Below are positions 1 through 10,649 of a stretch of DNA of 14,334 nt, piece after piece. The position numbers were made by a program, and so were the translations under genes. The notes beneath the pieces are model-generated. The model was not told the origin of the DNA, ran no database searches, and worked only from the letters and a program-made list of their open reading frames with translations. The DNA is from a virus, in the UHGV virus genome UHGV-2204358; one strand, written 5' to 3'. The first letter of the stretch is position 1. Every line of letters starts with the position of its first letter.

Positions 1-441
1 CTGGAAAGGCTGGGCCATACTCCTCCGGCAGAAGCAGAAAAAGCTTATTATGCTTCCATCGGAAACGATGATCTGGCAGCCTGAGTTCACAGATAAAATA
101 CTCTCCAGGAAACCCGGGGCGGTTCAGTGCTGGGAAGTCTGCGAATTAGAGAAAGCGTAAGCAAGATTGGGGGGAAAATCGGTAAACGTTTGGGCCATGA
201 AAAACAATGGTCACTACACGACCTTAGAAGAACGCTATCTACTCATCTAAGTGATCTCGGTGTTGAATTTTATGTAGTAGAACAACTGTTAGGCCATGCG
301 CTACCTGGCGTGGCGGGTGTTTACAACCGGAGTAAGTTTATGGCTAAAAAACTGGATGCTCTGGAACTCTGGACTACATATCTCAATAGCATCGCAGGTG
401 CTGATTCAAAAGTGACAATCCTCAAACAAAAGGCTGGTTAA
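1..441 (+). pseudogene. P4-type tyrosine integrase, C-terminal catalytic region only (ORF 127..441 from GTG); upstream reading frame interrupted, so probably a truncated or frameshifted integrase remnant
   Basis: Translation 127..441 shows the tyrosine-recombinase C-terminal signature (HDLRRT ... LLGHALPGVAGVYNRSKF). In-frame stops at 82-84 and 94-96 prevent upstream extension. Frame 2 upstream contains LSRKPG, which may be the displaced preceding integrase segment. Confidence 0.6.
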
Positions 442-442
442 C

Positions 443-673
443 ATGAAAAAAATGGCAATTGTTGATAAAAAGGGTCTGGAGTACATTCCTAACATCGATC
501 GTATGATCCGTGAGAAAGAATGTCGGGAGCTAACCACTCTTGCGAACAGCACACGCTGGAAGCTGGAGAAGGAAGGAAAATTTCCTAAGCGGATCAAGAT
601 TGGTTCCACTGCTGTTGCATATCGTCTTTCAGAAGTGCAGGCATGGATTCGAGGTGAGTGGGAAACGACTTAA
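443..673 (+). CDS. alpA: AlpA-family phage transcriptional regulator / excisionase-like HTH protein
   Basis: 76 aa ORF starting 2 nt after the integrase stop. Motif ELTTLANSTRWKLEKEGKFPKRIKIGSTAVAYRLSEVQAWI matches the AlpA (Phage_AlpA) helix-turn-helix pattern. Confidence 0.75.
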   Translation: MKKMAIVDKKGLEYIPNIDRMIREKECRELTTLANSTRWKLEKEGKFPKRIKIGSTAVAYRLSEVQAWIRGEWETT

Positions 674-690
674 CTATTAGGTGGGGCATT

Positions 691-1512
691 GTGGCTATAT
701 TTCATTATACAGATCTTTTTGGTTTGAAAGGTATATTAGACTCTAATTCTTTATGGGCTACAAATATATATTTCTTAAATGATAAAGAGGAGTCTAACCA
801 TGGATGTGAATGTTTTCGAAATACAATTAAAATAGTTGATGATAATATCATCCCAAAAGATAAGAAAACTATTTTGCTCAAGTCTCTTGACATGTATGAG
901 AAAGGGAAGTTACAAAAAGAAAAAGGGATTGATAAACATGTTTATAGCATATCTTTTTGTAAAGAAAACGATAAGTTAAGTCAGTGGAGAGGTTACGGAA
1001 ATAAACAGGGCGTTTGCATTGAATTTGATGCGGATGAACTTGTGAGTTTTTGTCAAAATATTTATTTAAATTGTGTTGCACATGATGTTATATATTCAAA
1101 TAATGACGATATTACAAAGATGAGTAAGGAGTTGGATGAGTTTTTTTCTTGTAATGGTATTAACATTAAAGAAATGAATGATCATTTTGTAACAATGGTC
1201 TCTACGTATCAATTTATATCTAAATATATCCCATTTTTTAAACATCCTAGTTTTATCGAAGAAAATGAATTTAGACTGGTGTTTACTCCGTGGATACAAA
1301 TGCCAGATGTGAAATTTAGAATAAATAATAATGGTATCATCCCTTATATCATTATTAATAATAAAGATAATAGAAAGTTACCAATTAAAAGCATTACAAT
1401 TGGCCCGACAAGCGATTATGATTTTATTGAGGCTGGTATAAAAATGTTTTTGGATTCAAGAGGATTTGGTTCTGTGGAAATTAAATCCTCATCAATTCCA
1501 TTCAGGGGGTAA
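691..1512 (+). CDS. DUF2971-like protein in AT-rich cargo segment; candidate accessory or anti-phage gene
   Basis: Long ORF (track 658..1512). Start most likely GTG 691, with AGGTGG 6 nt upstream at 679-684. N-terminal FHYT...GILDSNSLWATNIYFLNDKEE, mid SISFCKENDKLSQWRGYGNKQGVCIEFD and FKHPSFIEENEFRLVF resemble DUF2971 signatures recalled from memory. Sequence is visibly AT-rich, suggesting foreign origin. Confidence 0.6.
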   Translation: MAIFHYTDLFGLKGILDSNSLWATNIYFLNDKEESNHGCECFRNTIKIVDDNIIPKDKKTILLKSLDMYEKGKLQKEKGIDKHVYSISFCKENDKLSQWRGYGNKQGVCIEFDADELVSFCQNIYLNCVAHDVIYSNNDDITKMSKELDEFFSCNGINIKEMNDHFVTMVSTYQFISKYIPFFKHPSFIEENEFRLVFTPWIQMPDVKFRINNNGIIPYIIINNKDNRKLPIKSITIGPTSDYDFIEAGIKMFLDSRGFGSVEIKSSSIPFRG

Positions 1513-1557
1513 GGATTAACACTCTTAATCTATGATATTATAAAAATGGTAGATAAA

Positions 1558-1577
1558 GGCGACCAGAATTGGTCGCC
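1558..1577. terminator. Perfect 8-bp inverted repeat (GGCGACCA GAAT TGGTCGCC) between convergent genes; probable bidirectional or minus-strand intrinsic terminator
   Basis: Stem-loop seen directly. On the minus strand it is followed by a T-rich run (TTTATCTACCATTTTTATAAT). It lies 46 nt after the plus-strand stop at 1512 and 67 nt after the minus-strand stop at 1644. Confidence 0.45.
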
Positions 1578-1643
1578 AATGTGAGTATATAGTTAGCCTT
1601 AATCAGAATACGAGGTTATCGCCTGATAGGCAATGTGAACAGT

Positions 1644-2000
1644 TCAATATTTAGGTGGTTCAACAAGAGCGTTTATCATTGCTCTCAAATTATCGCGAAC
1701 ACTTATCCAAGTCTGTTCTGCTCGTTCTAACTCATCAGTGTACAACTTTAATGTTTTATCTATGCCATATGTGGCTATTAAATTTATAGCTTCTTGTAAT
1801 TTTTCGGGATTATTCCTTCTTGGGGGAGTGAATATACCGCGGATTTTTCCGGTAATTAAAGCTTTACGGTGTCTACATAGAATACCTTTACTTCCTGCTG
1901 GACAATTACAAGTCATGATTAGAGAGCCAGAATCGTTTGATACAGTGACTATGTATACATCCAAACTACTGCTACTTGTTGCGAAGAATTCGTATTTCAT
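1644..2000 (-). CDS. Small SWIM-type zinc-finger protein (C-x-C-x9-C-x-H), unknown function
   Basis: 118 aa ORF with strong RBS (AAGGAG, 7 nt before the ATG at 2000). Motif CNCPAGSKGILCRH fits the SWIM zinc-finger pattern CxCxnCxH. Lies 27 nt downstream of the RHH gene on the same strand (operon). Confidence 0.6.
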   Translation of the reverse strand: MKYEFFATSSSSLDVYIVTVSNDSGSLIMTCNCPAGSKGILCRHRKALITGKIRGIFTPPRRNNPEKLQEAINLIATYGIDKTLKLYTDELERAEQTWISVRDNLRAMINALVEPPKY

Positions 2001-2027
2001 GTGTTAGCTCCTTGACTTCAATTATTC

Positions 2028-2219
2028 TTATCCTTTTGGTTCAATACCGCGCCGTAGCAGCTCTTTGCGCCCTAATTCTTTAAGCCAGTTGGCTAGGCTT
2101 ATGCCGTCGCTCTGCGCTTCTTTGTCGAATTGCTCTTTTAGCTCTGGAGAAATTCGCATTCTGAATTGTGGAGATTGCCCATCACCCTTAGGACTTTTAT
2201 CGCGTTTGATCGTTGACAA
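2028..2219 (-). CDS. Arc/Mnt-like ribbon-helix-helix DNA-binding protein; candidate repressor or antitoxin
   Basis: C-terminal translation SPQFRMRISPELKEQFDKEAQSDGISLANWLKELGRKELLRRGIEPKG matches the Arc-type RHH pattern (PQFnlRlp.elke....A...g.S.N). Start is uncertain: TTG at 2219 with AGGTGG upstream, or ATG at 2159. The long 2028..2342 ORF in the track is probably an over-extension. Confidence 0.55.
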   Translation of the reverse strand: MSTIKRDKSPKGDGQSPQFRMRISPELKEQFDKEAQSDGISLANWLKELGRKELLRRGIEPKG

Positions 2220-2265
2220 GTGACCACCTATTGAATTAGCCTTTTCATTGTTAGGTGACCACCTT
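2220..2265. promoter_or_regulatory. Divergent promoter/operator region with two direct copies of GTGACCACCT (2220-2229 and 2256-2265)
   Basis: Repeats seen directly in the intergenic region between the minus-strand RHH gene and the plus-strand replication operon. A TTGACA hexamer lies at 2213-2218. Confidence 0.3.
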
Positions 2266-2358
2266 AACACGGAGGCACTTAAAAAAGCAAAGCCCGAAGG
2301 TGCTAGGAACACCAACGGGCTTCTAACCACCAACGATAGCAACAGTATCGAGGTAGCT

Positions 2359-2562
2359 ATGAGAAATCATACCACACACCCGCAAGGGCGGGACCCGCAC
2401 AACCTGAATAAATACATCTGGCGTTTTATCGCCCTGAGTACGGCACAACCGCGCGTGATTACCATCGAGGCCGCCAGCGAACAGGAAGCCCGGCTGCAAT
2501 CCCCAACTGGCTACGTGATGATATTCGCCGCCCGTATTCGTCAGGAGGTGTGCCATGAATGA
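2359..2562 (+). CDS. Small Icd-like (host cell division inhibitor-like) protein typical of P4-like satellites
   Basis: 67 aa from ATG 2359 with GAGGT RBS. Sequence MRNHTTHPQGRDPHNLNKYIWRFIALSTAQPRVITIEAASEQEARLQSPTGYVMIFAARIRQEV resembles, from memory, the small proteins annotated Icd-like in enterobacterial P4-like elements. The track ORF 2248..2562 is probably over-extended. Confidence 0.5.
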   Translation: MRNHTTHPQGRDPHNLNKYIWRFIALSTAQPRVITIEAASEQEARLQSPTGYVMIFAARIRQEVCHE

Positions 2563-2779
2563 TCTTTATTTTAAAGTGCTGACACATGCTGAAAACGCGC
2601 TCGTTTGTGGCAAAAATATGCGAGAAATCTTATCAACCTGGCTTGATGGGACAACAAATGCGGAACACGATGAACGGGATGCTAATTTAGCTGGAGCGTT
2701 AATTACGTTACTTGATCCTGTCATCAAAGAGCTGGATGAAGCTATAAAAATACACGACCAGAGCTATACCGGAGAATAA
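2555..2779 (+). CDS. Hypothetical small protein (74 aa), translationally coupled to the upstream gene
   Basis: ATG at 2555 overlaps the upstream stop (ATGAATGA). AGGAGG RBS at about 2543-2548. No recognisable domain. Confidence 0.55.
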   Translation: MNDLYFKVLTHAENALVCGKNMREILSTWLDGTTNAEHDERDANLAGALITLLDPVIKELDEAIKIHDQSYTGE

Positions 2780-2782
2780 AAA

Positions 2783-3070
2783 ATGAAAAATAAATTTTCT
2801 GGCTTTATTGCCAGCGGTCAAACTCATTCAAAAATCAGCCTTGGGGATATTTTCAAAGACAGCTATGGCTATCGGGTAAAGATTATTTCGGTTGATGATC
2901 GTCGTGTCTCTTATTTGCGTGATGGTTATGATTTTGAATGTGTTATGCCGCGTCAGCAGTTCGAAAGAGATTTCATTCTGGTAAAAAATTGCAAGACAGA
3001 TAATCAGAGGCGTGCCGCAGGCTATATCCGTAAAATTCGGGCAATGTTAGTTGCCGGAGGTAACAAATGA
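2783..3070 (+). CDS. Hypothetical small protein, DUF4222-like
   Basis: 95 aa ORF with GGAGAA RBS. Pattern YGYRVKIISVDDRRVSYLRDGYDFECVMPRQQFERDF resembles DUF4222 prophage proteins (recalled, not searched). Confidence 0.55.
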   Translation: MKNKFSGFIASGQTHSKISLGDIFKDSYGYRVKIISVDDRRVSYLRDGYDFECVMPRQQFERDFILVKNCKTDNQRRAAGYIRKIRAMLVAGGNK

Positions 3071-4887
3071 AACGTGCTCCGAACTTAAAATACCAACCGC
3101 GCGACAAAATGACGGAAGTCATCATTTTTGCTGGCAGTGATGCCTGGAGCCATGCAAAAGAATGGAATGAATGGGCAGGTAAGCATATTGCAGCAGATGA
3201 TACACCACCAGTCATTCTGGGTACGGAACAACTGGAAAACCTGGATGATATGCAAATTATCGATGAAGGCCGTCATTATGTGCGTGTTTATCGTGCCGGA
3301 AAGATTGCAGAGAAAAGTCTGACGAAGGTTGCGACATTACTTGCTATTGCAGGCGTAAAGGAAGCACGTTGTTACCGTAGCTTTGTTGATCGAGAGCCTG
3401 AAGACTGGACTCCGCGCCTTGTCGGCCTAAAAGCTGAAGCGGAGCATGGGGAAAGTCTGGTGATTGAACTGCCAGTGAAGAAGGCAGAGCGCAAAAATGA
3501 CGAGCGTGCTTCATCTTTGGCGTTGAATCAGATGGGGGCCAGCCAGCGCGGTGAAGTTCTCCTTGCACATTATGGCGGTGAACTGGCAATCAATGCCGAC
3601 TCTGACACCGTTCATCATTACAACGGCGTTGTATGGGAGCCGGTTCAGGATAAAGAGTTACAGCGTGCTATGGCGCAGATTTTCATTGATGCGGAGATCA
3701 GCTATTCGCAGAACGCTATTAAATCGGCGGTAGATACCATGAAGTTAAGTTTGCCTGTAATGGGGAATACAGCCCGTAACCTGATTGGATTCAGTAACGG
3801 GGTATTTGATACCAGAACTGGTAATTTTCGGGAGCATAACAAAAACGACTGGTTGTTAATTGCCAGTGAATTACCTTTCAGCCCACCAGCAGAGGGGGAA
3901 ACGCTGGCAACACATGCGCCGAATTTCTGGAAGTGGTTGCGCCGTTCGGTGGCTGAGAATGACCGCAAGGCAGATCGCGTACTGGCGGCATTATTCATGG
4001 TGCTGGCGAACCGGTACGACTGGCAGTTATTCATTGAGGTAACAGGGCCGGGGGGAAGTGGTAAAAGTGTGATGGCGGAGATTTGCACCATGCTGGCGGG
4101 TAAGGCTAATACAGTATCAGCAAGCATGAAGGCGCTGGAAGATGCAAGGGAACGTGCGTTAGTGGTTGGCTTTTCGCTGATTATCATGCCGGATATGACC
4201 CGCTACGCTGGTGATGGGGCAGGGATTAAGGCCATTACAGGCGGTGACAAGGTGGCAATTGACCCGAAACACAAAGCCCCCTATTCAACGCGTATTCCGG
4301 CAGTAGTGCTGGCGGTTAACAATAACGCCATGTCATTCAGTGACCGCAGCGGGGGGATCTCACGTCGTCGGGTGATATTCAATTTTTCGGAAGTTGTACC
4401 GGAGAACGAACGCGATTCGATGCTGGCGGAAAAAATAGAAGGTGAGCTGGCGGTAGTGATTCGTCATCTGCTTACACGGTTTGCTGATCAGGACGAAGCC
4501 AGACGCCTGTTATATGAGCAGCAGAAATCTGAAGAAGCACTGGCGATAAAGCGAGAGGGGGATTCGCTGGTGGACTTCTGCGGCTATCTCATGGCATCGG
4601 TAATGTGTGATGGCCTGTTAGTGGGTAATGCTGAAATTGTGCCATTCAGCCCACGCAGGTATCTCTATCATGCCTATCTGGCTTATATGAGGGCACATGG
4701 GTTTGGTAAACCTGTAACACTGACGCGCTTCGGTAAAGATATGCCGGGGGCAATGGCGGAATATGGCAGGGAGTATATGAAACGGAAAACGAAGCACGGT
4801 TTGCGTTCAAACGTGACACTGACGGAGGAATCAGAAGACTGGATGCCATCATGTGTATCGGTCACTAATGACGATAGCAAAAATTAA
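3067..4887 (+). CDS. Satellite replication protein: P4-alpha/D5-type primase-helicase (COG3378-like) with P-loop NTPase domain
   Basis: 606 aa ORF. Walker A motif VTGPGGSGKSV. Start ATG overlaps the previous stop (ATGA) with GGAGGT RBS. Followed immediately by an iteron array, the classic pri/rep-ori arrangement. Confidence 0.85.
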   Translation: MKRAPNLKYQPRDKMTEVIIFAGSDAWSHAKEWNEWAGKHIAADDTPPVILGTEQLENLDDMQIIDEGRHYVRVYRAGKIAEKSLTKVATLLAIAGVKEARCYRSFVDREPEDWTPRLVGLKAEAEHGESLVIELPVKKAERKNDERASSLALNQMGASQRGEVLLAHYGGELAINADSDTVHHYNGVVWEPVQDKELQRAMAQIFIDAEISYSQNAIKSAVDTMKLSLPVMGNTARNLIGFSNGVFDTRTGNFREHNKNDWLLIASELPFSPPAEGETLATHAPNFWKWLRRSVAENDRKADRVLAALFMVLANRYDWQLFIEVTGPGGSGKSVMAEICTMLAGKANTVSASMKALEDARERALVVGFSLIIMPDMTRYAGDGAGIKAITGGDKVAIDPKHKAPYSTRIPAVVLAVNNNAMSFSDRSGGISRRRVIFNFSEVVPENERDSMLAEKIEGELAVVIRHLLTRFADQDEARRLLYEQQKSEEALAIKREGDSLVDFCGYLMASVMCDGLLVGNAEIVPFSPRRYLYHAYLAYMRAHGFGKPVTLTRFGKDMPGAMAEYGREYMKRKTKHGLRSNVTLTEESEDWMPSCVSVTNDDSKN

Positions 4888-4900
4888 ACTTATGGAATAA

Positions 4901-5123
4901 CTGTTCACCACTGTTCACCCTGTCATAAATATCTTTTATATCAGTATATTATAGGGTGAACAGTTATTTATGAACTGTTCACCAAACTATTCACTGTTCA
5001 CCTTTTTGATTGTTTATTGAGCTTCAAGGGTGAACAGTGGTGAACAGTTGGTGAATAGTTTTTGTGAAACTGTTTACCCATTAACATTATGAATTAAAAG
5101 AGAAAATATCAAAAGGTGAACAG
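4901..5123. repeat. Iteron-type replication origin: at least 9 copies of 9-bp CTGTTCACC / GGTGAACAG in both orientations with AT-rich spacers
   Basis: CTGTTCACC at 4901, 4911, 4975, 4994. GGTGAACAG at 4955, 5029, 5039, 5115. Variants GGTGAATAG at 5050 and CTGTTTACC at 5070. Tandem pairs at 10-bp phasing. AT-rich stretch 4921-4954. Sits directly downstream of the primase-helicase gene. Confidence 0.7.
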
Positions 5124-5174
5124 ATGAAGGGTTAAAACGCAAAAATTTTAATTTACTGCTGTGAGATAAAGCCT

Positions 5175-5420
5175 ATGACAGCGAAGCACACAAAAAAATC
5201 ACAATCGCACGCCCTTGATTTGACGGAATACTGGTTAAGGGTGTCGATAAAAATCATCGACCGCAACGCCGGGGAAGGATACGCGAAAGCACATCCCGAA
5301 CTGATTAGCGCATTCATGACAACGGCGGCTGCAAACTTTGCCACTCTGACCGAACGGGAGATTGCTGAAGCGGAGGAAGTGACAACAATCAATATTAAGT
5401 CCGGAGAGCAGGCCGCATGA
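5175..5420 (+). CDS. Hypothetical protein (81 aa)
   Basis: ORF whose stop overlaps the start of the SSB-like gene (ATGA). No recognisable domain. Confidence 0.5.
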   Translation: MTAKHTKKSQSHALDLTEYWLRVSIKIIDRNAGEGYAKAHPELISAFMTTAAANFATLTEREIAEAEEVTTINIKSGEQAA

Positions 5421-5866
5421 CGGCGCAAATATCAGTTTACGGGCGGTCGGTGGACGACCCGCAGACAAAACAGACCAGCAAGGGCACCCCCATGACGTTG
5501 GCGCGTATGGCGGTATCACTGCCCTGCAGTCAGTCGGATGACGGTCAGGCGACGATGTGGTTATCTGTCCTGGCGTTTGGCAGACAAGCCGACGCGCTGG
5601 CAAAGCATCACAAAGGCGAACTCCTGAGCGTGGCGGGTAACATGCAGATGAGCCAGTGGACTGGACAGAACGGCGAAACGCGGCAGGGCTGGCAGGTTAT
5701 CGCAGACAGCGTAATCAGTGCGCGATCGGTGCGACCGGGCGGCAATAAAGGCCAACAGGGGCAGGCTACTGACGCACTGAACAGAGCAAAACAACAGGCA
5801 GATCAGCAAGGAAGCCAGCCACCAGTGGGAGATAATGAGCAATGGGGAGATGATATCCCGTTTTAA
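5417..5866 (+). CDS. ssb: SSB-like single-stranded DNA-binding protein with conserved C-terminal acidic DDIPF tail
   Basis: 149 aa. OB-fold-like N-terminal region (ISVYGR...TMWLSVLAFGRQA...GNMQMSQWTGQNGETRQGWQVIADSV), Gly/Gln-rich linker, and the protein ends in WGDDIPF, the hallmark SSB C-terminal tip. Confidence 0.75.
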   Translation: MTAQISVYGRSVDDPQTKQTSKGTPMTLARMAVSLPCSQSDDGQATMWLSVLAFGRQADALAKHHKGELLSVAGNMQMSQWTGQNGETRQGWQVIADSVISARSVRPGGNKGQQGQATDALNRAKQQADQQGSQPPVGDNEQWGDDIPF

Positions 5867-5885
5867 ATATTGCCAATAAAAAAAG

Positions 5886-5909
5886 GCCGGAAAAAATAAA
5901 TTTTCCGGC
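5886..5909 (+). terminator. Stem-loop (GCCGGAAAA AATAAA TTTTCCGGC) after the SSB-like gene; probable intrinsic terminator
   Basis: 9-bp inverted repeat seen directly, 20 nt after the stop at 5866. Separates the replication operon from the capsid-gene pair. Confidence 0.45.
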
Positions 5910-6083
5910 ATGCTACATAAATCCCGACCAAAGGGAGTGAAGATATTAACACTAATTGTCCGCACTGAAGTTGTCACCCCAAAACTTTATACAACATTGC
6001 ACTCGGTTGCATGTGTTCGCATGACAAATATCGGTGATAGCATATATCCACAATTATTTTTAATGAATGCAAAGAGGATGCGT

Positions 6084-7124
6084 ATGGTTGATTTATATTC
6101 GCCTACTCAGCTTGTACAGGTGGTTAATGCTGTAGATGTACAAAAAAAATTAAATGCGTTGTTTACCAGTTTGTTTTTCACTCGCTCGGTAATGTTTGAA
6201 TCGAGAGACATTATTCTTGATACGATCGACGATCCAAATATCCCGATCGCGGCGTTTTGCTCTCCTATGGTGGGCAGTAAAGTTTCACGAGATGAGGGAT
6301 ACGAATCAAAAACAATTCGTCCAGGTTATATGAAGCCGAAAAGCAGCATTGATCCAAATAAGTTAGCTGTGCGCCCTGTTGGTGTGTCACCTGAGCAATA
6401 CAATGCTTTTGGGGCGCGTAATATTAAAGTTAAACAGGCGATTGTAAATCAGGCTAAAGCTATTCGTGCACGTATTGAATGGCTTGCTGTTCAGGCAATC
6501 ACAACGGGGAAAAATATCATTGAGGGCGATGGTATTGAACGTTATGAGCTGGACTGGAATATAAAACCACAAAATATCATCACTCAGTCTGGCGGTACTG
6601 AGTGGTCAGGTAAGGATAAAGAAACTTTTGATCCAAATGATGATATTGAGAGCTACGCAGAATTTAGTGAGGGCGTCACTAATATCATCATTATGGGTGG
6701 TAATGTATGGAAGAAATACCGTTCATTCAGAGCGATAAAAGAGGCTTTGGATACCCGTCGTGGTTCTAATTCCGAACTGGAAACGGCCCTTAAAGACCTT
6801 GGTGATTCGGTGAGTTTTAAAGGGTATATGGGCGATGTTGCGATTGTTGTTTACAGCGGGCGTTATACCGACGAGGACGGAACAGAAAAACATTTCCTTG
6901 ATCCTGATTTGATGGTGCTTGGCAATACGGCTCTTCAGGGGATTGTCGCCTATGGCGGTATTCAGGATCCGGAGCTAATCCGAATGGGGCTGACTAAAGC
7001 CGAACTTGCACCGAAAAACTATATTGTGCCTGGTGATCCGGCTATTGAATATGTGCAGACACATTCAGCACCACAGCCAATACCGGCCCGCATCAATCGT
7101 TTTGTTACCGTTCGCATTGGCTAA
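6084..7124 (+). CDS. Lambda gpE-like major capsid protein homolog (Phage_cap_E family), diverged copy encoded by the island
   Basis: Translation aligns along its length with lambda gpE (GYMKPK, ITQSGGTEWS, DTRRGSNSELETA, AIVVYSG), at roughly half identity by eye to the prophage E copy at 9861..10649. Start placed at ATG 6084 (AAGAGG RBS, matches the gpE N-terminus MVDLYSPTQL). The track start at 5910 gives an unsupported N-terminal extension. Confidence 0.85.
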   Translation: MVDLYSPTQLVQVVNAVDVQKKLNALFTSLFFTRSVMFESRDIILDTIDDPNIPIAAFCSPMVGSKVSRDEGYESKTIRPGYMKPKSSIDPNKLAVRPVGVSPEQYNAFGARNIKVKQAIVNQAKAIRARIEWLAVQAITTGKNIIEGDGIERYELDWNIKPQNIITQSGGTEWSGKDKETFDPNDDIESYAEFSEGVTNIIIMGGNVWKKYRSFRAIKEALDTRRGSNSELETALKDLGDSVSFKGYMGDVAIVVYSGRYTDEDGTEKHFLDPDLMVLGNTALQGIVAYGGIQDPELIRMGLTKAELAPKNYIVPGDPAIEYVQTHSAPQPIPARINRFVTVRIG

Positions 7125-7133
7125 GGGGGAGCA

Positions 7134-7475
7134 ATGGCTACTCATTACACTGAACTCATGGCTGGCACTGAAGCACTGGTGACTACGCTGGGGATATTTT
7201 CAGCTAATAAAGGGGTAATTCCTGCATTTACGCCACTGATGCAGGAAGATGCAACAGGTGCACTGGTGGTATGGGATGGTTCGAGCGTAGGTAAAGCGGT
7301 TTATGTTTCCGCTGTACAAATCGACACCGCGAAAAAAACACAGGCTCAGGTCTATAAGACAGGTGTCTTAAATGTTGATGCTCTGAACTGGCCTGAGTCT
7401 GTTAAAGAACTGTCAGTAAAGGTTGCAGCGTTTGTTGGCTCAGGTATTTCTGTTCAGCCGCTGGCTCGTGTGTAA
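7134..7475 (+). CDS. Lambda gpD-like head decoration protein homolog
   Basis: 113 aa. TPLMQEDATGALVVWDGSSVGKAV ... WPE ... AFVGSGISV parallels lambda gpD ([25 protein letters not shown] ... WPE ... AFAGTAISIV). Strong RBS AAGGGGGAG. Confidence 0.75.
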   Translation: MATHYTELMAGTEALVTTLGIFSANKGVIPAFTPLMQEDATGALVVWDGSSVGKAVYVSAVQIDTAKKTQAQVYKTGVLNVDALNWPESVKELSVKVAAFVGSGISVQPLARV

Positions 7476-7486
7476 AGGGGGATACA

Positions 7487-7870
7487 ATGCAGAATGATTA
7501 CAATGACCTTAAGCCAATTGCCGAAATGATGTACCCGAATCCAGCTGTAGAGGAATTAAAAGCTATCGCTGACAAAATGTGTTTAAGCGAGCGCCTTGTT
7601 GATATGAATCAGGTGATGGAAATTACAACCCTGAGTCGTCGTACACTGCTAAACCTTGAGGCTAGTGGAGAGTTCCCGGAGCGTGTGCAGGTTACGGAAG
7701 GGCGTAAGGCCTGGTATTTAAGTGAAGTGATCGACTGGATAAATAATATTCCTCGCGCTTCTGAATATTGCCGCGTACCTGTCCCAAAAAAGCCAGATGC
7801 GGCGCTATGCCTCAAGATTGAGCGTGTACGCCGCAATGCACGGGATGGTCGCTATAAGCTGATTGGTTGA
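7487..7870 (+). CDS. Second AlpA/Vis-like HTH DNA-binding protein (127 aa)
   Basis: Central segment MNQVMEITTLSRRTLLNLEASGEFPERVQVTEGRKAWYLSEVIDWI matches the AlpA-family HTH pattern. RBS AAGGGGGA. Confidence 0.6.
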   Translation: MQNDYNDLKPIAEMMYPNPAVEELKAIADKMCLSERLVDMNQVMEITTLSRRTLLNLEASGEFPERVQVTEGRKAWYLSEVIDWINNIPRASEYCRVPVPKKPDAALCLKIERVRRNARDGRYKLIG

Positions 7871-8795
7871 TGAAATTAGGGCCCGCTCTGGCTGGCGGGT
7901 CCTTTCCGGCGATCCAGAACGTTACGGGGCGTCAGGCGCGCAGTTTTTCTCTATTTATGGAAATTTTCCGGTTTAAGGCTTTTCCGTTCTTCTTCGCCGT
8001 AACTTTATGTTTTTATTTAAAATACCCCCTGAAAAGAAAGGAAATGACAGGCGCTGAAAACGGGCTTTTTGGCCTCTGCCGTTTCCTTTCTCTGATTTTG
8101 TTGCTGTTTGTCACGGCCTATCGCCAGAAAAAACTCTCATGCTTGCGTTGAAATCAGGCTCTACACTAAAGTAGTCGATAACGCGCCACTGGCTTCACTT
8201 TATGGTCGTGGCCTACTTCTGCACTATCGCAACAGCCTTACGAGTCCTGCTGGTAAGCTGTTGAGTAAGCAGAATACGGATTACAGGGCATCCTATGCGT
8301 ATTGTGGCGGATCGAACACAACCGCTCAGGTGAAACCCGTTTCGTTACTATTATAGGAAAATCTTCATACCCAACTTGCTTGATAACTTCTTCTGGTTGT
8401 TTTAACCATGTAGAGATGATATTTCCCTGAAAAATTGCTTTCCCTCTGACTAGATGCGCATACCACATTTTGTCTTCGACATAGAACCGCGCAGAAATGA
8501 TTACTCCACAGATACGGTTCTTTCGTCAATTCATTATGGAATGGGCTCAAAAGGGAGAGCTCAACAATAAAGTTCTGGTAGGATAATTGTATGCTTACAA
8601 TTGTAATGAAAGGAGAGTTAGAGCCTGGTGTGATTCTGTGTGTAAAATTTTAGCAAATTACGTTTAATTAAGTGTCGTAACACACCATGCCTGTCAGATA
8701 TTACGCTTATCATAGAGTGTATGATATTGCTTTTCTAAACAATAAGCTGTTATATTTTATGGGTATTGTGTTTAATTTTTAATGACGGCTCTAAC

Positions 8796-9731
8796 ATGAC
8801 CCCTGATGCAGTTTTGATTGCTAAAGCAATACTAATGTTGAAAGCAGATGTTGATTATACAAAAGATTATGTATTCCCTATTGCATTATCTTTTTTATCG
8901 GCGCTTATGGGAGGCTTAACTGCTTATTGCATCAATAATAGGCAGGAGAAGATTAAAATAGAAACGGAGAAATTTAATTCTGCTAATACGCTTATGATGG
9001 TTTCTTTTCAGATGATAAATACACTTGTGGGAATTAAAAGTAGTTATATTGGTTTGAGATCTAGAAATCCAATATTAAGAGCGCTGGCAATAAATGAATT
9101 TTTATTTAACGCCGGGGAGGTAAATTTCGATATTAGCCGTCTTTCATTTATAAAAAAGATACCCACAGCTAATAAATCTCTATTTGAGAGGTTTGTTTTT
9201 TTTATTAAGTACAAGATACTAAAACATGAACTTATTATGCCGTCAGATGAAGAAATTGGAAAGTCATGGAGGAATATTGCTCGAATTGATGCTTTTTTGT
9301 TTAATTATAATTTTGTTTTGAAAAGTTTAATTGTCAGGAATCAGCTTGATTCAGATTTAAAGAAACGTTTGTCTAATATTGCCAGTAAAGACAAGCCAGT
9401 GTTTGAAATTAAATTGGATGAAATAAAGAAAGAAATTGGTGCTAGTGAGTTGTCAAAATATATTGATTTGACAGAAAGTATAGTGGCGTTGATCGATTAT
9501 CTCATAAGGGAAATTGATTCATTTATTATGGAGTTCCCGAAGGTAGCGGAAAGTAATATTGAGTTATCTAAGGTGAATAAAGCTAAATTATCAACAATTG
9601 TTCTCAATAAGCCAGCATATTTGGCTGCATTGATTCCAATTCCACAACCTGACTTTGAATTAGTATCTTTACTAGTGGGTATGAGCCCAGAAGAAGCAAA
9701 GCAAAGATATTCGTATTCTGGTTGGCACTAG
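8796..9731 (+). CDS. Hypothetical AT-rich protein with a predicted N-terminal transmembrane helix; function unknown
   Basis: Long ORF (track 8766..9731 from TTG; ATG at 8796 preferred). Hydrophobic segment VFPIALSFLSALMGGLTAYCI. Strongly AT-rich, unlike the flanking DNA. No recognisable domain. Confidence 0.6.
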   Translation: MTPDAVLIAKAILMLKADVDYTKDYVFPIALSFLSALMGGLTAYCINNRQEKIKIETEKFNSANTLMMVSFQMINTLVGIKSSYIGLRSRNPILRALAINEFLFNAGEVNFDISRLSFIKKIPTANKSLFERFVFFIKYKILKHELIMPSDEEIGKSWRNIARIDAFLFNYNFVLKSLIVRNQLDSDLKKRLSNIASKDKPVFEIKLDEIKKEIGASELSKYIDLTESIVALIDYLIREIDSFIMEFPKVAESNIELSKVNKAKLSTIVLNKPAYLAALIPIPQPDFELVSLLVGMSPEEAKQRYSYSGWH

Positions 9732-9860
9732 TAGATATAGTGACATACCTTTGCGAAGCGCTGTATTGCTACGTGTATTGCTTTTTAGCTGTATTTTGAT
9801 AGAGAGAGCCATTTATTTCATTAAAAATCATTCAGTTCCTTTCATATTTGACTCATGTAA

Positions 9861-10649
9861 CCCAAGCATGAGGTGAATCCGCAGATGACCCTGCGTCGCC
9901 TGCCGGATGAAGATCCGCAGAATCTGGCGGACCCGGCTTACCGCCGCCGTCGCATCATCATGCAGAACATGCGTGACGAAGAGCTGGCCATTGCTCAGGT
10001 CGAAGAGATGCAGGCAGTTTCTGCCGTGCTTAAGGGCAAATACACCATGACCGGTGAAGCCTTCGATCCGGTTGAGGTGGATATGGGCCGCAGTGAGGAG
10101 AATAACATCACGCAGTCCGGCGGCACGGAGTGGAGCAAGCGTGACAAGTCCACGTATGACCCGACCGACGATATCGAAGCCTACGCGCTGAACGCCAGCG
10201 GTGTGGTGAATATCATCGTGTTCGATCCGAAAGGCTGGGCGCTGTTCCGTTCCTTCAAAGCCGTCAAGGAGAAGCTGGATACCCGTCGCGGCTCTAATTC
10301 CGAGCTGGAGACAGCGGTAAAAGACCTGGGCGAAGCGGTGTCCTATAAGGGAATGTATGGCGATACGGCGATCGTCGTGTATTCCGGACAGTACGTGGAA
10401 AACGACGTCAAAAAGAACTTCCTGCCGGACAACACGATGGTGCTGGGGAACACTCAGGCACGCGGTCTGCGCACCTATGGCTGCATTCAGGATGCGGACG
10501 CACAGCGCGAAGGTATTAACGCCTCTGCCCGCTACCCGAAAAACTGGGTGACCACCGGCGATCCGGCGCGTGAGTTCACCATGATTCAGTCAGCACCGCT
10601 GATGCTGCTGGCTGACCCTGATGCGTTCGTGTCCGTACAACTGGCGTAA
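9861..10649 (+). pseudogene. E: Lambda major capsid protein E, 5'-truncated (lacks about the first 80 codons)
   Basis: Translation from 9861 (PKHEVNPQMTLRRLPDEDPQ ... FVSVQLA) is near-identical to lambda gpE from about residue 80 to the C-terminus. A TAA stop at 9858-9860 and unrelated AT-rich DNA lie immediately upstream. The only in-frame start is GTG 9873. Confidence 0.8.

What the first reader, a model, noticed from the sequence alone, without database searches (positions are those of the whole stretch)
8796..9731. AT-rich gene for a membrane-anchored protein of unknown function at the island/prophage junction
This roughly 310 aa ORF is strongly AT-rich, has a single N-terminal hydrophobic helix and no recognisable domain. 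It sits between a degenerate non-coding stretch and the truncated lambda E gene, which is not a normal position for any lambda gene. Foreign composition plus this placement suggests an acquired accessory gene, possibly an abortive-infection or superinfection-exclusion factor.
Basis: partly seen in the sequence, partly recalled or inferred. Interest (0 to 1): 0.5.

Follow-up and report, generated by a model that had tools for sequence, protein, structure and literature searches.

The report
Satellite cargo gene, likely phage defence
This AT-rich gene is the last, swappable cargo gene of a known kind of phage satellite that sits inside its helper prophage's capsid gene; it encodes an uncharacterised membrane-anchored protein that probably excludes other phages, but no experiment shows this yet.

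Summary
The ORF is real: 8796-9731 (+), 311 aa, 32% GC against 56% downstream, one N-terminal membrane helix, no Pfam, NCBIfam, PADLOC, PDB or viral-fold match, and dN/dS of about 0.1. The "island" is a known element, a helper-embedded PICI satellite (Tommasini 2023) inserted at codon ~80 of the prophage's lambda-E-like capsid gene. That explains the truncated E gene.

The ORF is the satellite's last gene, next to attR, in a cargo hotspot. Among the 60 best-matching E. coli genomes with near-identical flanks, the slot holds this ORF (17), a TIR protein (15), TerS plus DUF2971/PDC-S31 (15), a DUF262+HEPN pair resembling NsnA/PD-T4-2 (10) or an Mrr-like nuclease (3).

Homologs are always AT-rich. 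In 13 of 25 further loci they follow the lambdoid tail gene I, and in 11 of those they lie between I and J. Others sit in other satellites, on plasmids, and beside a validated TIR system in the P2 "old/tin" hotspot.

The predicted fold is a membrane helix running into a generic helical bundle that probably faces the cytoplasm.

Best reading: a new, non-enzymatic, membrane-anchored anti-phage cargo gene. I cannot separate an abortive-infection mechanism from an entry block. The function rests on context only.

The parts
8796..9731 (+). The ORF: 311-aa single-pass membrane protein (RefSeq WP_016230959.1; PHROG 21267, unknown function), cargo gene of the satellite.
   Evidence: dN/dS 0.10-0.12; AlphaFold2 model pLDDT 86.
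8868..8933 (+). Codons 25-46: the only transmembrane helix. It carries the motif S35-A36-x-x-G39-G40-x-x-A43, invariant in the close family (small-xxx-small).
   Evidence: Hydropathy; invariant columns; part of the continuous helix 21-84 in the model.
8727..8756 (+). Candidate own promoter: -35 TTGCTT (8727-8732), 18-nt spacer, extended -10 TGtTATATT (8748-8756). Inferred only.
   Evidence: The block is conserved in the 80%-identical Enterobacter cloacae copy. It falls below the threshold of the consensus scan.
8512..9824 (+). DNA that travels with the ORF (the cargo cassette). The left limit is where similarity to the E. cloacae copy starts. The right limit is where all sister satellites regain similarity.
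8189..8350 (+). Relic of a lambdoid tail-assembly gene I (C-terminal part). It matches the Citrobacter-type gpI, not the helper's own gpI.
   Evidence: tblastn at 45% identity over 55 aa, E 4.5e-8. Shared with the TIR- and nuclease-bearing sister satellites.
8343..8524 (-). Segment inverted relative to strain T-HYM1. It carries the last codons of the gpI relic (8522-8466, minus strand).
7487..7870 (+). Second AlpA-family gene of the satellite. It is the conserved left flank of the cargo slot.
   Evidence: Pfam Phage_AlpA; PHROG 2790; conserved in 365 E. coli genomes together with the capsid and decoration genes.
9750..9870 (+). Right end of the satellite (attR). It has two TGTATTGC repeats (9762, 9774), read as candidate integrase arm sites (inferred), and a crossover core at about 9859-9868.
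   Evidence: The core AGCCGAAGCA is shared by attL and attR in strain MDR_56. Repeats. All sister satellites regain similarity at 9824-9840.
9873..10649 (+). 3' part of the helper prophage's lambda-E-type major capsid gene. The N-terminal 82 codons lie left of the satellite, outside the window.
   Evidence: Pfam Phage_cap_E positions 94-328 in the equivalent Kosakonia fragment.
1..7475 (+). Rest of the helper-embedded PICI: integrase 3' end (to 441), AlpA (443-673), DUF2971 (658-1512), SWIM protein (1644-2000, minus strand), DUF4222 (2783-3070), primase (3067-4887), iterons (4895-5125), SSB (5417-5866), satellite capsid (6084-7124) and decoration (7134-7475) genes.

Best explanation
The ORF is the variable 3'-end cargo gene of a helper-embedded PICI satellite, and it encodes an anti-phage protein. 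It is a single-pass inner-membrane protein. A short (~24 aa) N-terminal tail probably faces the periplasm, and a ~265-aa non-enzymatic helical bundle probably hangs from the membrane helix into the cytoplasm. My preferred mechanism is that the cytoplasmic bundle binds a component of an infecting phage. This changes the packing of the membrane helices through their conserved small-xxx-small face, and the infected cell's membrane is compromised, which aborts the infection. The satellite, its helper prophage and the host clone benefit. Shown: the gene, its selection, its place in a cargo hotspot, the defence-type nature of the alternative cargos, and its spread as an AT-rich insert across satellites, lambdoid tail modules, a P2 hotspot and plasmids. 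Inferred: topology, sensor role, oligomerisation, membrane damage and anti-phage activity itself. I give about 0.6 that it excludes phages by some route and 0.35 to this abortive-type route.
For: Element identity: int, AlpA, primase, SSB, capsid, decoration and AlpA2 genes lie inside a split E gene, all co-oriented. This matches the published HE-PICI at site E:Phage_cap_E:80 (PMC10111431).
Hotspot: 365 E. coli genomes carry the flanking satellite module, but only 17 carry the ORF. With flanks 96-99% identical, the slot holds this ORF (17), a TIR protein (15), TerS plus DUF2971 (15), DUF262+HEPN (10) or an Mrr-like nuclease (3). The breakpoints are sharp.
Alternative cargos: they match PADLOC NsnA (2e-59) and PD-T4-2_A (7e-39), PDC-S31 (7.5e-26) and TIR models. 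PICIs are reported to carry immune systems at their 5' or 3' ends (PMC11364771).
P2 hotspot: a distant homolog (27.5% identity over 92% of the query, E 2e-16) lies next to cos in the P2 'old/tin' hotspot of phage AC1, beside the validated 2TM-1TM-TIR system (PMC9122126).
Spread: the family occurs on plasmids, in islands and in satellites of other genera, always at 32-41% GC and, in most loci, well below its flanks.
Protein: purifying selection. A confident all-helical model with the TM helix continuing into a bundle. K+R excess on the C-terminal flank in 43 members against 4 of the 52 tallied. Invariant SAxxGGxxA in the TM helix.
Confidence: 0.35

Rival explanations
1. Superinfection exclusion by entry block. 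The membrane-anchored protein prevents the DNA of incoming, especially lambdoid, phages from crossing the inner membrane. It would do so by engaging the incoming tail or tape-measure proteins, or by inhibiting an inner-membrane entry factor such as ManYZ or PtsG from the cytoplasmic face. The cell is not killed.
For: In 13 of the 25 loci analysed (22 viral, 3 genomic), homologs follow the lambdoid tail gene I, and in 11 of those they lie between I and J. They are AT-rich inserts there. [quoted passage not shown] The protein has a membrane anchor and no enzymatic motif. DicB shows that a cytoplasmic protein can block lambda entry through ManYZ (title and abstract of PMC6832061, listed). The hotspot evidence fits this reading equally well.
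Against: Known exclusion proteins are small and mostly face the periplasm (my own knowledge). This protein has a large domain predicted to be cytoplasmic. No similarity to gp15, SieA, Cor or any other phage-encoded protein was found in 50,697 phage records apart from P2_AC1. Carriage on plasmids and in a P2 hotspot suggests a target broader than lambdoid entry.
Confidence: 0.25
2. A phage or satellite life-cycle accessory rather than a defence. The membrane protein would be made late with the tail genes and would tune lysis timing, tail-tip maturation or helper/satellite interference.
For: Tight placement between I and J, co-oriented, with 20-50 bp spacers. In the satellite it lies in the 'Late zone', where captured helper late genes accumulate (PMC10111431), next to a relic of gene I. 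No intrinsic terminator separates it from E'.
Against: It is absent from lambda-type I-J junctions, including the helper prophage of this very locus, and from 348 of the 365 related satellites. It has foreign composition everywhere. It also occurs on plasmids, in integrative islands and in a P2 accessory hotspot, with no tail genes nearby. The alternative cargos in the same slot are defence-type genes, not morphogenetic ones.
Confidence: 0.15
3. A lysogenic-conversion moron acting on host physiology (envelope stress, transport, colonisation) with no role against phages.
For: Morons have diverse host-benefit functions (PMC3594210). The protein is membrane-located. No defence homology was found.
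Against: The slot and the P2 locus are dominated by defence-type genes. The bulk of the protein probably faces the cytoplasm, which argues against surface functions of the Lom or Bor kind. There is no transporter, enzyme or regulator signature.
Confidence: 0.15
4. A non-functional or decaying ORF in junk DNA at the satellite end.
For: It lies next to degenerate DNA: the gpI relic and an inversion.
Against: It is intact in all 17 E. coli carriers. dN/dS is 0.10-0.12 over dS 0.8-1.8. 334 family representatives were found in an exhaustive profile search. The structure model is confident.
Confidence: 0.02

Closest known systems
Helper-embedded PICI ('11capE' type, site E:Phage_cap_E:80), Tommasini, Mageeney & Williams 2023 (PMC10111431)
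   Same: The surrounding element matches. It has an integrase plus AlpA, an accessory zone, a primase/SSB replication zone and a late zone with capsid-type genes. It is inserted co-oriented at about codon 80 of a lambda-E cognate inside a lambdoid prophage.
   Different: This concerns the element, not the ORF. The sections I read do not describe this cargo gene or treat the 3' end as a defence hotspot. They describe the Late zone as a site of late-gene capture.
Immune cargo at the ends of PICIs and in the cos-proximal hotspots of P4 and P2 (He et al. 2024, PMC11364771; Rousset et al. 2022, PMC9122126)
   Same: A short slot between conserved anchor genes, with swappable single- or two-gene systems and cargos of TIR, HEPN, nuclease and DUF types. 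A distant homolog of the ORF sits in the P2 hotspot of phage AC1.
   Different: Neither this ORF family nor AC1 gp01 is among the PADLOC models for validated systems. Anti-phage activity is untested.
HK97 gp15 moron (superinfection exclusion; Cumby et al. 2012, reviewed in PMC3594210)
   Same: A foreign-composition insert inside a lambdoid tail operon that encodes an inner-membrane protein. For gp15 this protein blocks genome injection.
   Different: No sequence similarity. gp15 is described as a small protein, whereas this one has 311 aa and a large helical domain. The slot differs: gp15 lies between the tail chaperone and tape-measure genes, this family between I and J. gp15 relatives are YebO-like, and this family has no chromosomal housekeeping relatives that I detected.
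2TM-1TM-TIR system of P2-like phage AC1 (Rousset 2022; PADLOC models 2TM-TIR, 1TM-TIR, TIR-TM)
   Same: Same hotspot and the same phage as the distant homolog gp01. The system uses transmembrane proteins as presumed effectors.
   Different: gp01 and the window ORF match none of the three component models. gp01 is separated from the TIR gene by about 750 bp. The window has no TIR gene next to the ORF.

Membership tests
Helper-embedded PICI (for the surrounding element) | Integrated inside a late gene of a helper prophage and co-oriented with it | tested here: met
   In strain MDR_56 the E gene is split. Its first 82 codons lie left of int and 263 codons lie right of the ORF. All key genes are on the same strand, within a complete lambdoid head-tail module.
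Helper-embedded PICI (for the surrounding element) | Four ordered zones: integrase+AlpA, accessory ('Bro') zone, primase/SSB replication zone, late zone | tested here: met
   Phage_integrase and AlpA; then DUF2971, SWIM and Arc-like genes; then DUF4222, primase, iterons and SSB; then capsid, decoration, AlpA2 and cargo.
Helper-embedded PICI (for the surrounding element) | Site E:Phage_cap_E:80 with an identity block shared by attL and attR | tested here: met
   The 10-bp block AGCCGAAGCA occurs at both junctions in MDR_56. The E' fragment of the equivalent Kosakonia element starts at about Pfam Phage_cap_E position 80-94.
Helper-embedded PICI (for the surrounding element) | Excision and transfer on helper induction | not testable with these tools
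   Needs induction experiments.
Satellite/prophage defence-hotspot cargo | Variable gene content between conserved anchor sequences | tested here: met
   Five cargo types occur between AlpA2 and attR with 96-99% identical flanks. Breakpoints lie at window 8101, 8285 or 8360 on the left and 9824-9840 on the right.
Satellite/prophage defence-hotspot cargo | Other occupants of the slot are known or candidate defence genes | tested here: met
   NsnA/PD-T4-2_A (2e-59 / 7e-39), PDC-S31 (7.5e-26), TIR models (2e-17) and Mrr_cat.
Satellite/prophage defence-hotspot cargo | Measured anti-phage activity of this gene | not testable with these tools
   Needs plating and growth assays.
Known defence / Abi / Sie protein families (PADLOC-DB v2, Pfam, NCBIfam, all sequenced phages) | Sequence homology to a described component | tested here: not met
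   No PADLOC hit for the ORF. Only isolated chance-level hits among 62 family members. No hit in Pfam or NCBIfam. tblastn against 50,697 phage records found only P2_AC1 gp01.
2TM-1TM-TIR system (Rousset 2022) | The protein matches one of the three component models and is adjacent to a TIR gene | tested here: not met
   AC1 gp02, gp03 and gp04 match TIR-TM, 1TM-TIR and 2TM-TIR. gp01, the homolog of the ORF, matches none. No TIR gene flanks the ORF in the window.
Moron (Juhala et al. 2000 sense) | Composition differs from flanks, and the gene is present or absent between otherwise syntenic phage genes | tested here: met
   32-41% GC, and below both flanks (up to 57%) in most of the 25 loci. I and J are adjacent in the helper prophage, but the slot is occupied in 11 of the 25 analysed loci, all 11 confirmed by gpI/gpJ homology. 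The Citrobacter and Lelliottia prophages show the same gene order, identified for J by Pfam and for I by C-terminal sequence only.
Moron (Juhala et al. 2000 sense) | Own promoter and terminator | tested here: inconclusive
   A conserved extended -10-like element lies upstream in the window, and TATAAT/TATAAA-like elements lie in several I-J spacers. Neither passes the consensus scan. The hairpin downstream in the I-J loci is also present where there is no insert, so it is not specific to the gene.
Spanin / lysis protein (considered because of N-terminal TM plus helical domain) | Location in the lysis cassette with a lipoprotein partner, and a periplasmic C-terminal domain | tested here: not met
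   The gene is never in a lysis cassette in the loci examined. The charge rule predicts a cytoplasmic C-terminal domain.

The most novel reading that the evidence does not exclude
The ORF founds a new family of single-gene, non-enzymatic, membrane-anchored anti-phage proteins (334 representatives at 50% identity). Its main natural home would be a previously unrecognised accessory slot between tail genes I and J of lambdoid prophages. From there it would have been shuttled into satellites, P2 hotspots and plasmids. Its cytoplasmic helical bundle would define a new kind of phage sensor coupled directly to a membrane helix.
Probability: 0.3. Interest if true: 0.6.

Novelty: new member of a known kind. 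Interest (0 to 1): 0.4.

Why it matters
The odd gene order is explained by a known element: a satellite embedded in its helper's capsid gene. What remains is a concrete, cheap-to-test candidate for a new anti-phage protein family with no similarity to catalogued systems. It comes with natural "swap" controls, because sister satellites carry TIR, PD-T4-2-like, PDC-S31 or nuclease cargos in the same slot. If the gene is active, three things follow. It would add a non-enzymatic membrane-anchored defence. It would show that the 3' end of helper-embedded PICIs is an immunity hotspot. It would flag the lambdoid I-J junction as a place to mine for more such genes. Because the satellite sits inside its helper, any defence it carries also protects that helper, which bears on whether such satellites are parasites or partners.

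Tried and rejected
- **AC1 system membership was rejected.** I first suspected that the P2_AC1 homolog was one of the "transmembrane proteins" of the validated AC1 TIR system. PADLOC assigns that system to gp02-gp04, and gp01 is only a neighbour.
- **The I-J hairpin is not a moron terminator.** The GC-rich hairpin after the homologs in I-J loci also occurs in the I-J spacer of the helper prophage, which has no insert.
- **The TIR and Mrr-like cargos have no phage relatives.** I tested whether they also come from phages; there was no match in the phage collection.
- **The profile search through the word index added few new members**. The distant alignment was too diverse for locus finding. The genome-contig scan gave only 3 loci.
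- **A possible partner gene is not constant.** A 228-230-aa protein precedes the homolog in two contexts. It is absent from the window and most other contexts and has no Pfam or PADLOC match.
- **Other nulls.** Rfam found no RNA family in the window. No paper mentions WP_016230959. No intrinsic terminator or consensus sigma-70 promoter on the + strand was found around the ORF.

Full report
**1.

An ORF runs from the ATG at 8796 to the stop at 9731 on the + strand and encodes 311 aa. A TTG at 8766 would add ten residues. Homolog N-termini and the RefSeq call (WP_016230959.1) support the ATG.

Its GC content is 0.324, against 0.438 in the 3 kb upstream and 0.559 in the 3 kb downstream. The only strongly hydrophobic stretch is residues 25-46. 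Pfam, NCBIfam and PADLOC give no significant hit. The only family match is PHROG 21267, which has no known function.

The gene is not a chance ORF:
- It is intact in every E. coli genome that carries it.
- It has 22 clusters of full-length relatives at 36-97% identity.
- dN/dS is 0.10-0.12 against relatives whose synonymous divergence is 0.8-1.8.

**2. The "island" is a known element**

In the 99.7%-identical locus of strain MDR_56, the ORF is the last gene of an ~11-kb element. The gene order is integrase, AlpA, accessory genes, Icd-like, DUF4222, primase, SSB, major capsid, head decoration, a second AlpA, then the ORF.

The element is inserted inside the lambda-E-type major capsid gene of an otherwise complete lambdoid prophage. 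The first 82 codons of E lie left of the integrase and the remaining 263 lie right of the ORF. The window starts inside the integrase gene. Its genes match this layout by PHROG and Pfam, including iterons between primase and SSB.

A 10-bp block (AGCCGAAGCA in MDR_56) is shared by the two junctions. The right-hand copy lies at about 9859-9868 of the window.

This is the helper-embedded PICI ("11capE" type, site E:Phage_cap_E:80) described by Tommasini, Mageeney and Williams, who found 201 instances at this site (PMC10111431). It fully explains the truncated E gene and the "abnormal" position.

**3. The ORF sits in a cargo hotspot**

The satellite's capsid, decoration and AlpA2 module is present at 80% coverage or more in 365 of 5,426 complete E. 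coli genomes. The ORF is present in only 17.

I searched with 7.8 kb spanning the slot and listed the 60 best genomes, whose flanks are 96-99% identical. The space between AlpA2 and attR holds:

| Cargo | Genomes | Match |
|---|---|---|
| This ORF | 17 | none |
| TIR_2 + DUF3298 protein | 15 | PADLOC TIR models, 2e-17 |
| TerS + DUF2971 protein | 15 | PDC-S31, 7.5e-26 |
| DUF262 + HEPN pair | 10 | NsnA 2e-59; PD-T4-2_A 7e-39; PD-T4-2_B weak |
| Mrr_cat nuclease | 3 | Pfam Mrr_cat only |

Similarity to the window ends on the left at 8101, 8285 or 8360, depending on the cargo. It resumes at 9824-9840 in all. PICIs are reported to carry immune systems at their 5' or 3' ends (PMC11364771). The ORF therefore occupies a slot whose other tenants are known or candidate defence genes.

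**4. The "degenerate non-coding stretch"**

Positions 8189-8350 encode a relic of the C-terminal part of a lambdoid tail-assembly protein I (45% identity over 55 aa, E 4.5e-8). The last 19 codons lie inverted at 8522-8466.

Relative to strain T-HYM1, where the relic is contiguous, the window carries a 182-bp inversion at 8343-8524. The relic resembles the gpI of Citrobacter and Lelliottia prophages, not the gpI of the helper prophage. It is shared with the TIR- and nuclease-bearing sister satellites. It is therefore older than the present cargo, or the cargo was exchanged to its right.

**5. Where the family lives**

An exhaustive profile search found 334 representatives at 50% clustering, 94 of them below 1e-30, mostly 270-320 aa. 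Every source name recovered is "hypothetical protein".

- **Lambdoid tail modules.** I analysed 25 further loci, 22 from viral contigs and 3 from genomes. In 13 the homolog directly follows a gpI homolog, and in 11 of those it directly precedes a gpJ homolog. The order is L-K-I-[gene]-J, with spacers of 20-50 bp. Citrobacter and Lelliottia prophages show the same gene order.
- **No insert in the helper.** The helper prophage of this locus has I and J adjacent with nothing between them.
- **Other satellites.** The homolog sits in the same terminal position next to E' in satellites of Kosakonia and of a metagenome.
- **A probable satellite remnant.** In Enterobacter cloacae a copy lies two annotated small ORFs away from a SIR2-like gene. 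The DNA match runs from window 8512 to 9870 and includes the att arm.
- **Islands and plasmids.** Homologs occur in integrative islands of Leclercia and Citrobacter and on plasmids of Rouxiella and Erwinia.
- **P2 hotspot.** A distant homolog (27.5% identity over 92% of the query, E 2e-16) is gp01 of the P2-like phage AC1. It lies next to cos in the "old/tin" locus that Rousset et al. showed to be an anti-phage hotspot (PMC9122126).

AC1 gp02-gp04 are the validated 2TM-1TM-TIR system according to PADLOC. gp01 is a neighbour about 750 bp away and not a component.

In these contexts the gene is 32-41% GC, and in most it lies well below flanks of up to 57%.

**6. The protein**

AlphaFold2 on a 21-sequence alignment gives a confident all-helical model (pLDDT 86, pTM 0.76). 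It has:
- a short helix at residues 3-15;
- one 64-residue helix (21-84) that contains the membrane segment and continues as a stalk;
- long helices at 161-195 and 216-252 that pack into a bundle.

Among the 52 family members tallied, the 15 residues after the membrane helix carry more Lys+Arg than the 15 before it in 43 cases, against 4 the other way (means 3.25 and 1.73). This predicts a short periplasmic N-tail and a cytoplasmic ~265-aa domain. It is a rule-of-thumb result, not a measurement.

The membrane helix carries S35-A36-x-x-G39-G40-x-x-A43, invariant in the close family. This is a small-xxx-small face of the kind that mediates helix-helix packing (established knowledge).

Residues conserved across the wide family are L77, K81, R95 and E227, with P28, N64, Y84, P92, N170 and D234 nearly so. 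They form no recognisable catalytic motif.

**7. Expression signals**

The consensus scan finds no + strand promoter or terminator around the ORF. A -35-like TTGCTT (8727-8732) and an extended -10 TGtTATATT (8748-8756) are conserved in the 80%-identical E. cloacae copy. Several I-J spacers contain TATAAT/TATAAA-like elements just upstream of the start codon. These are leads only.

The GC-rich hairpin plus T-run after the homologs in I-J loci also occurs in the helper's I-J spacer, which has no insert. It is therefore a resident feature and not a terminator belonging to the gene.

In the satellite the gene is co-oriented with the helper's late operon, so late read-through transcription is also plausible. 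That is an inference from the HE-PICI model in PMC10111431.

**8. Mechanism**

The evidence supports a selected, horizontally shuttled, membrane-anchored, non-enzymatic accessory protein that lives where anti-phage genes live. I put about 0.6 on phage exclusion in some form.

- **Abortive-type sensor/effector (0.35, preferred).** The large cytoplasmic bundle would recognise a phage component, and the conserved packing face of the membrane helix would mediate a change that compromises the membrane. The reasons are the protein's size, its predicted orientation, and the Abi-type company it keeps.
- **Entry block (0.25).** The precedent is HK97 gp15, a foreign insert in a lambdoid tail operon whose inner-membrane product blocks genome injection (PMC3594210). 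The preferred I-J location fits this well. Action from the cytoplasmic face is possible, as for DicB on ManYZ (PMC6832061).
- **Late-expressed phage or satellite life-cycle function (0.15).**
- **Host-physiology moron (0.15).**
- **Junk (0.02).** The conservation data exclude this.

**9. Comparison with what is known, and novelty**

The element is already known. The ORF is not a member of any described defence, Abi, Sie, Tai or spanin family by the tests I could run. I file it as a new member of a known kind: cargo of a satellite or prophage immunity hotspot.

The more novel reading is a new defence family whose main home is an unrecognised I-J accessory slot in lambdoid phages. I give that about 0.3.

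**10. Verdict**

The odd placement is explained by a published kind of satellite.

Interest is moderate (0.4). This is a well-delimited, testable candidate and not a surprise.

Noticed in passing
window 658-1512 (+) and 1644-2000 (-): A second AT-rich cargo region (27-33% GC) lies at the 5' accessory zone of the same satellite. It holds a 284-aa DUF2971 protein (weak PADLOC PDC-S31 hit) and a 117-aa SWIM zinc-finger protein (weak PDC-S62 hit). A DUF2971 protein is also one of the alternative 3' cargos. Another sits directly upstream of an ORF homolog in L052 (7076-7942).
   Followed up: partly
window 8189-8350 (+), 8466-8522 (-), inversion 8343-8524: A relic of a Citrobacter-type lambdoid tail gene I lies inside the satellite, with a 182-bp inversion relative to strain T-HYM1. 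It is shared with sister satellites carrying TIR or Mrr-like cargo. Homologs of the ORF natively follow gene I in prophages, so the slot may have been seeded from a lambdoid I-J region.
   Followed up: partly
window 4895-5125: A dense array of GGTGAACAG / CTGTTCACC iterons lies between primase and SSB: five copies in each orientation, with several inverted pairs. It is presumably the satellite's replication origin.
   Followed up: partly
window 6084-7475: The satellite that interrupts the helper's capsid gene E carries its own major capsid and head-decoration genes (PHROG 29 and 49). Whether these replace or remodel the helper's capsid while E is split was not examined.
   Followed up: no
window 9762-9781; L001 about 4565-4592: The octamer TGTATTGC occurs twice 12 bp apart just inside attR, and again twice just inside attL of MDR_56. 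These are candidate integrase arm-binding sites. Three matches in the whole window are expected by chance in only 5 of 200 shuffles.
   Followed up: partly
L026 (phage P2_AC1, NC_070903 105-1022): gp01 of the P2-like phage AC1 is a distant homolog of the ORF. It lies next to cos, about 750 bp from the validated 2TM-1TM-TIR system. It was apparently not one of the three genes tested by Rousset et al., so part of the AC1 lysogen's phenotype could in principle come from it.
   Followed up: partly
L002 9168-9854 and L036 7162-7854: A 228-230-aa protein with no Pfam or PADLOC match, 96% identical between the two loci, sits directly upstream of the ORF homolog in both a Leclercia integrative island and a metagenomic satellite. 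It could be a partner or an independent cargo. It is absent from the window.
   Followed up: partly
L005 8974-9315: Citrobacter prophages that carry the homolog between I and J also carry a 113-aa predicted lipoprotein (MKKALLALSLLITAGCSS...) inserted between K and I. This is a second small accessory gene inside the tail-tip module.
   Followed up: no
window 8585-8605: A perfect short palindrome, ATTGTA-TGCT-TACAAT, lies about 190 bp upstream of the ORF at the left edge of the cargo-specific DNA. The corresponding stretch is partly deleted in the E. cloacae copy. Its significance is unknown.
   Followed up: no
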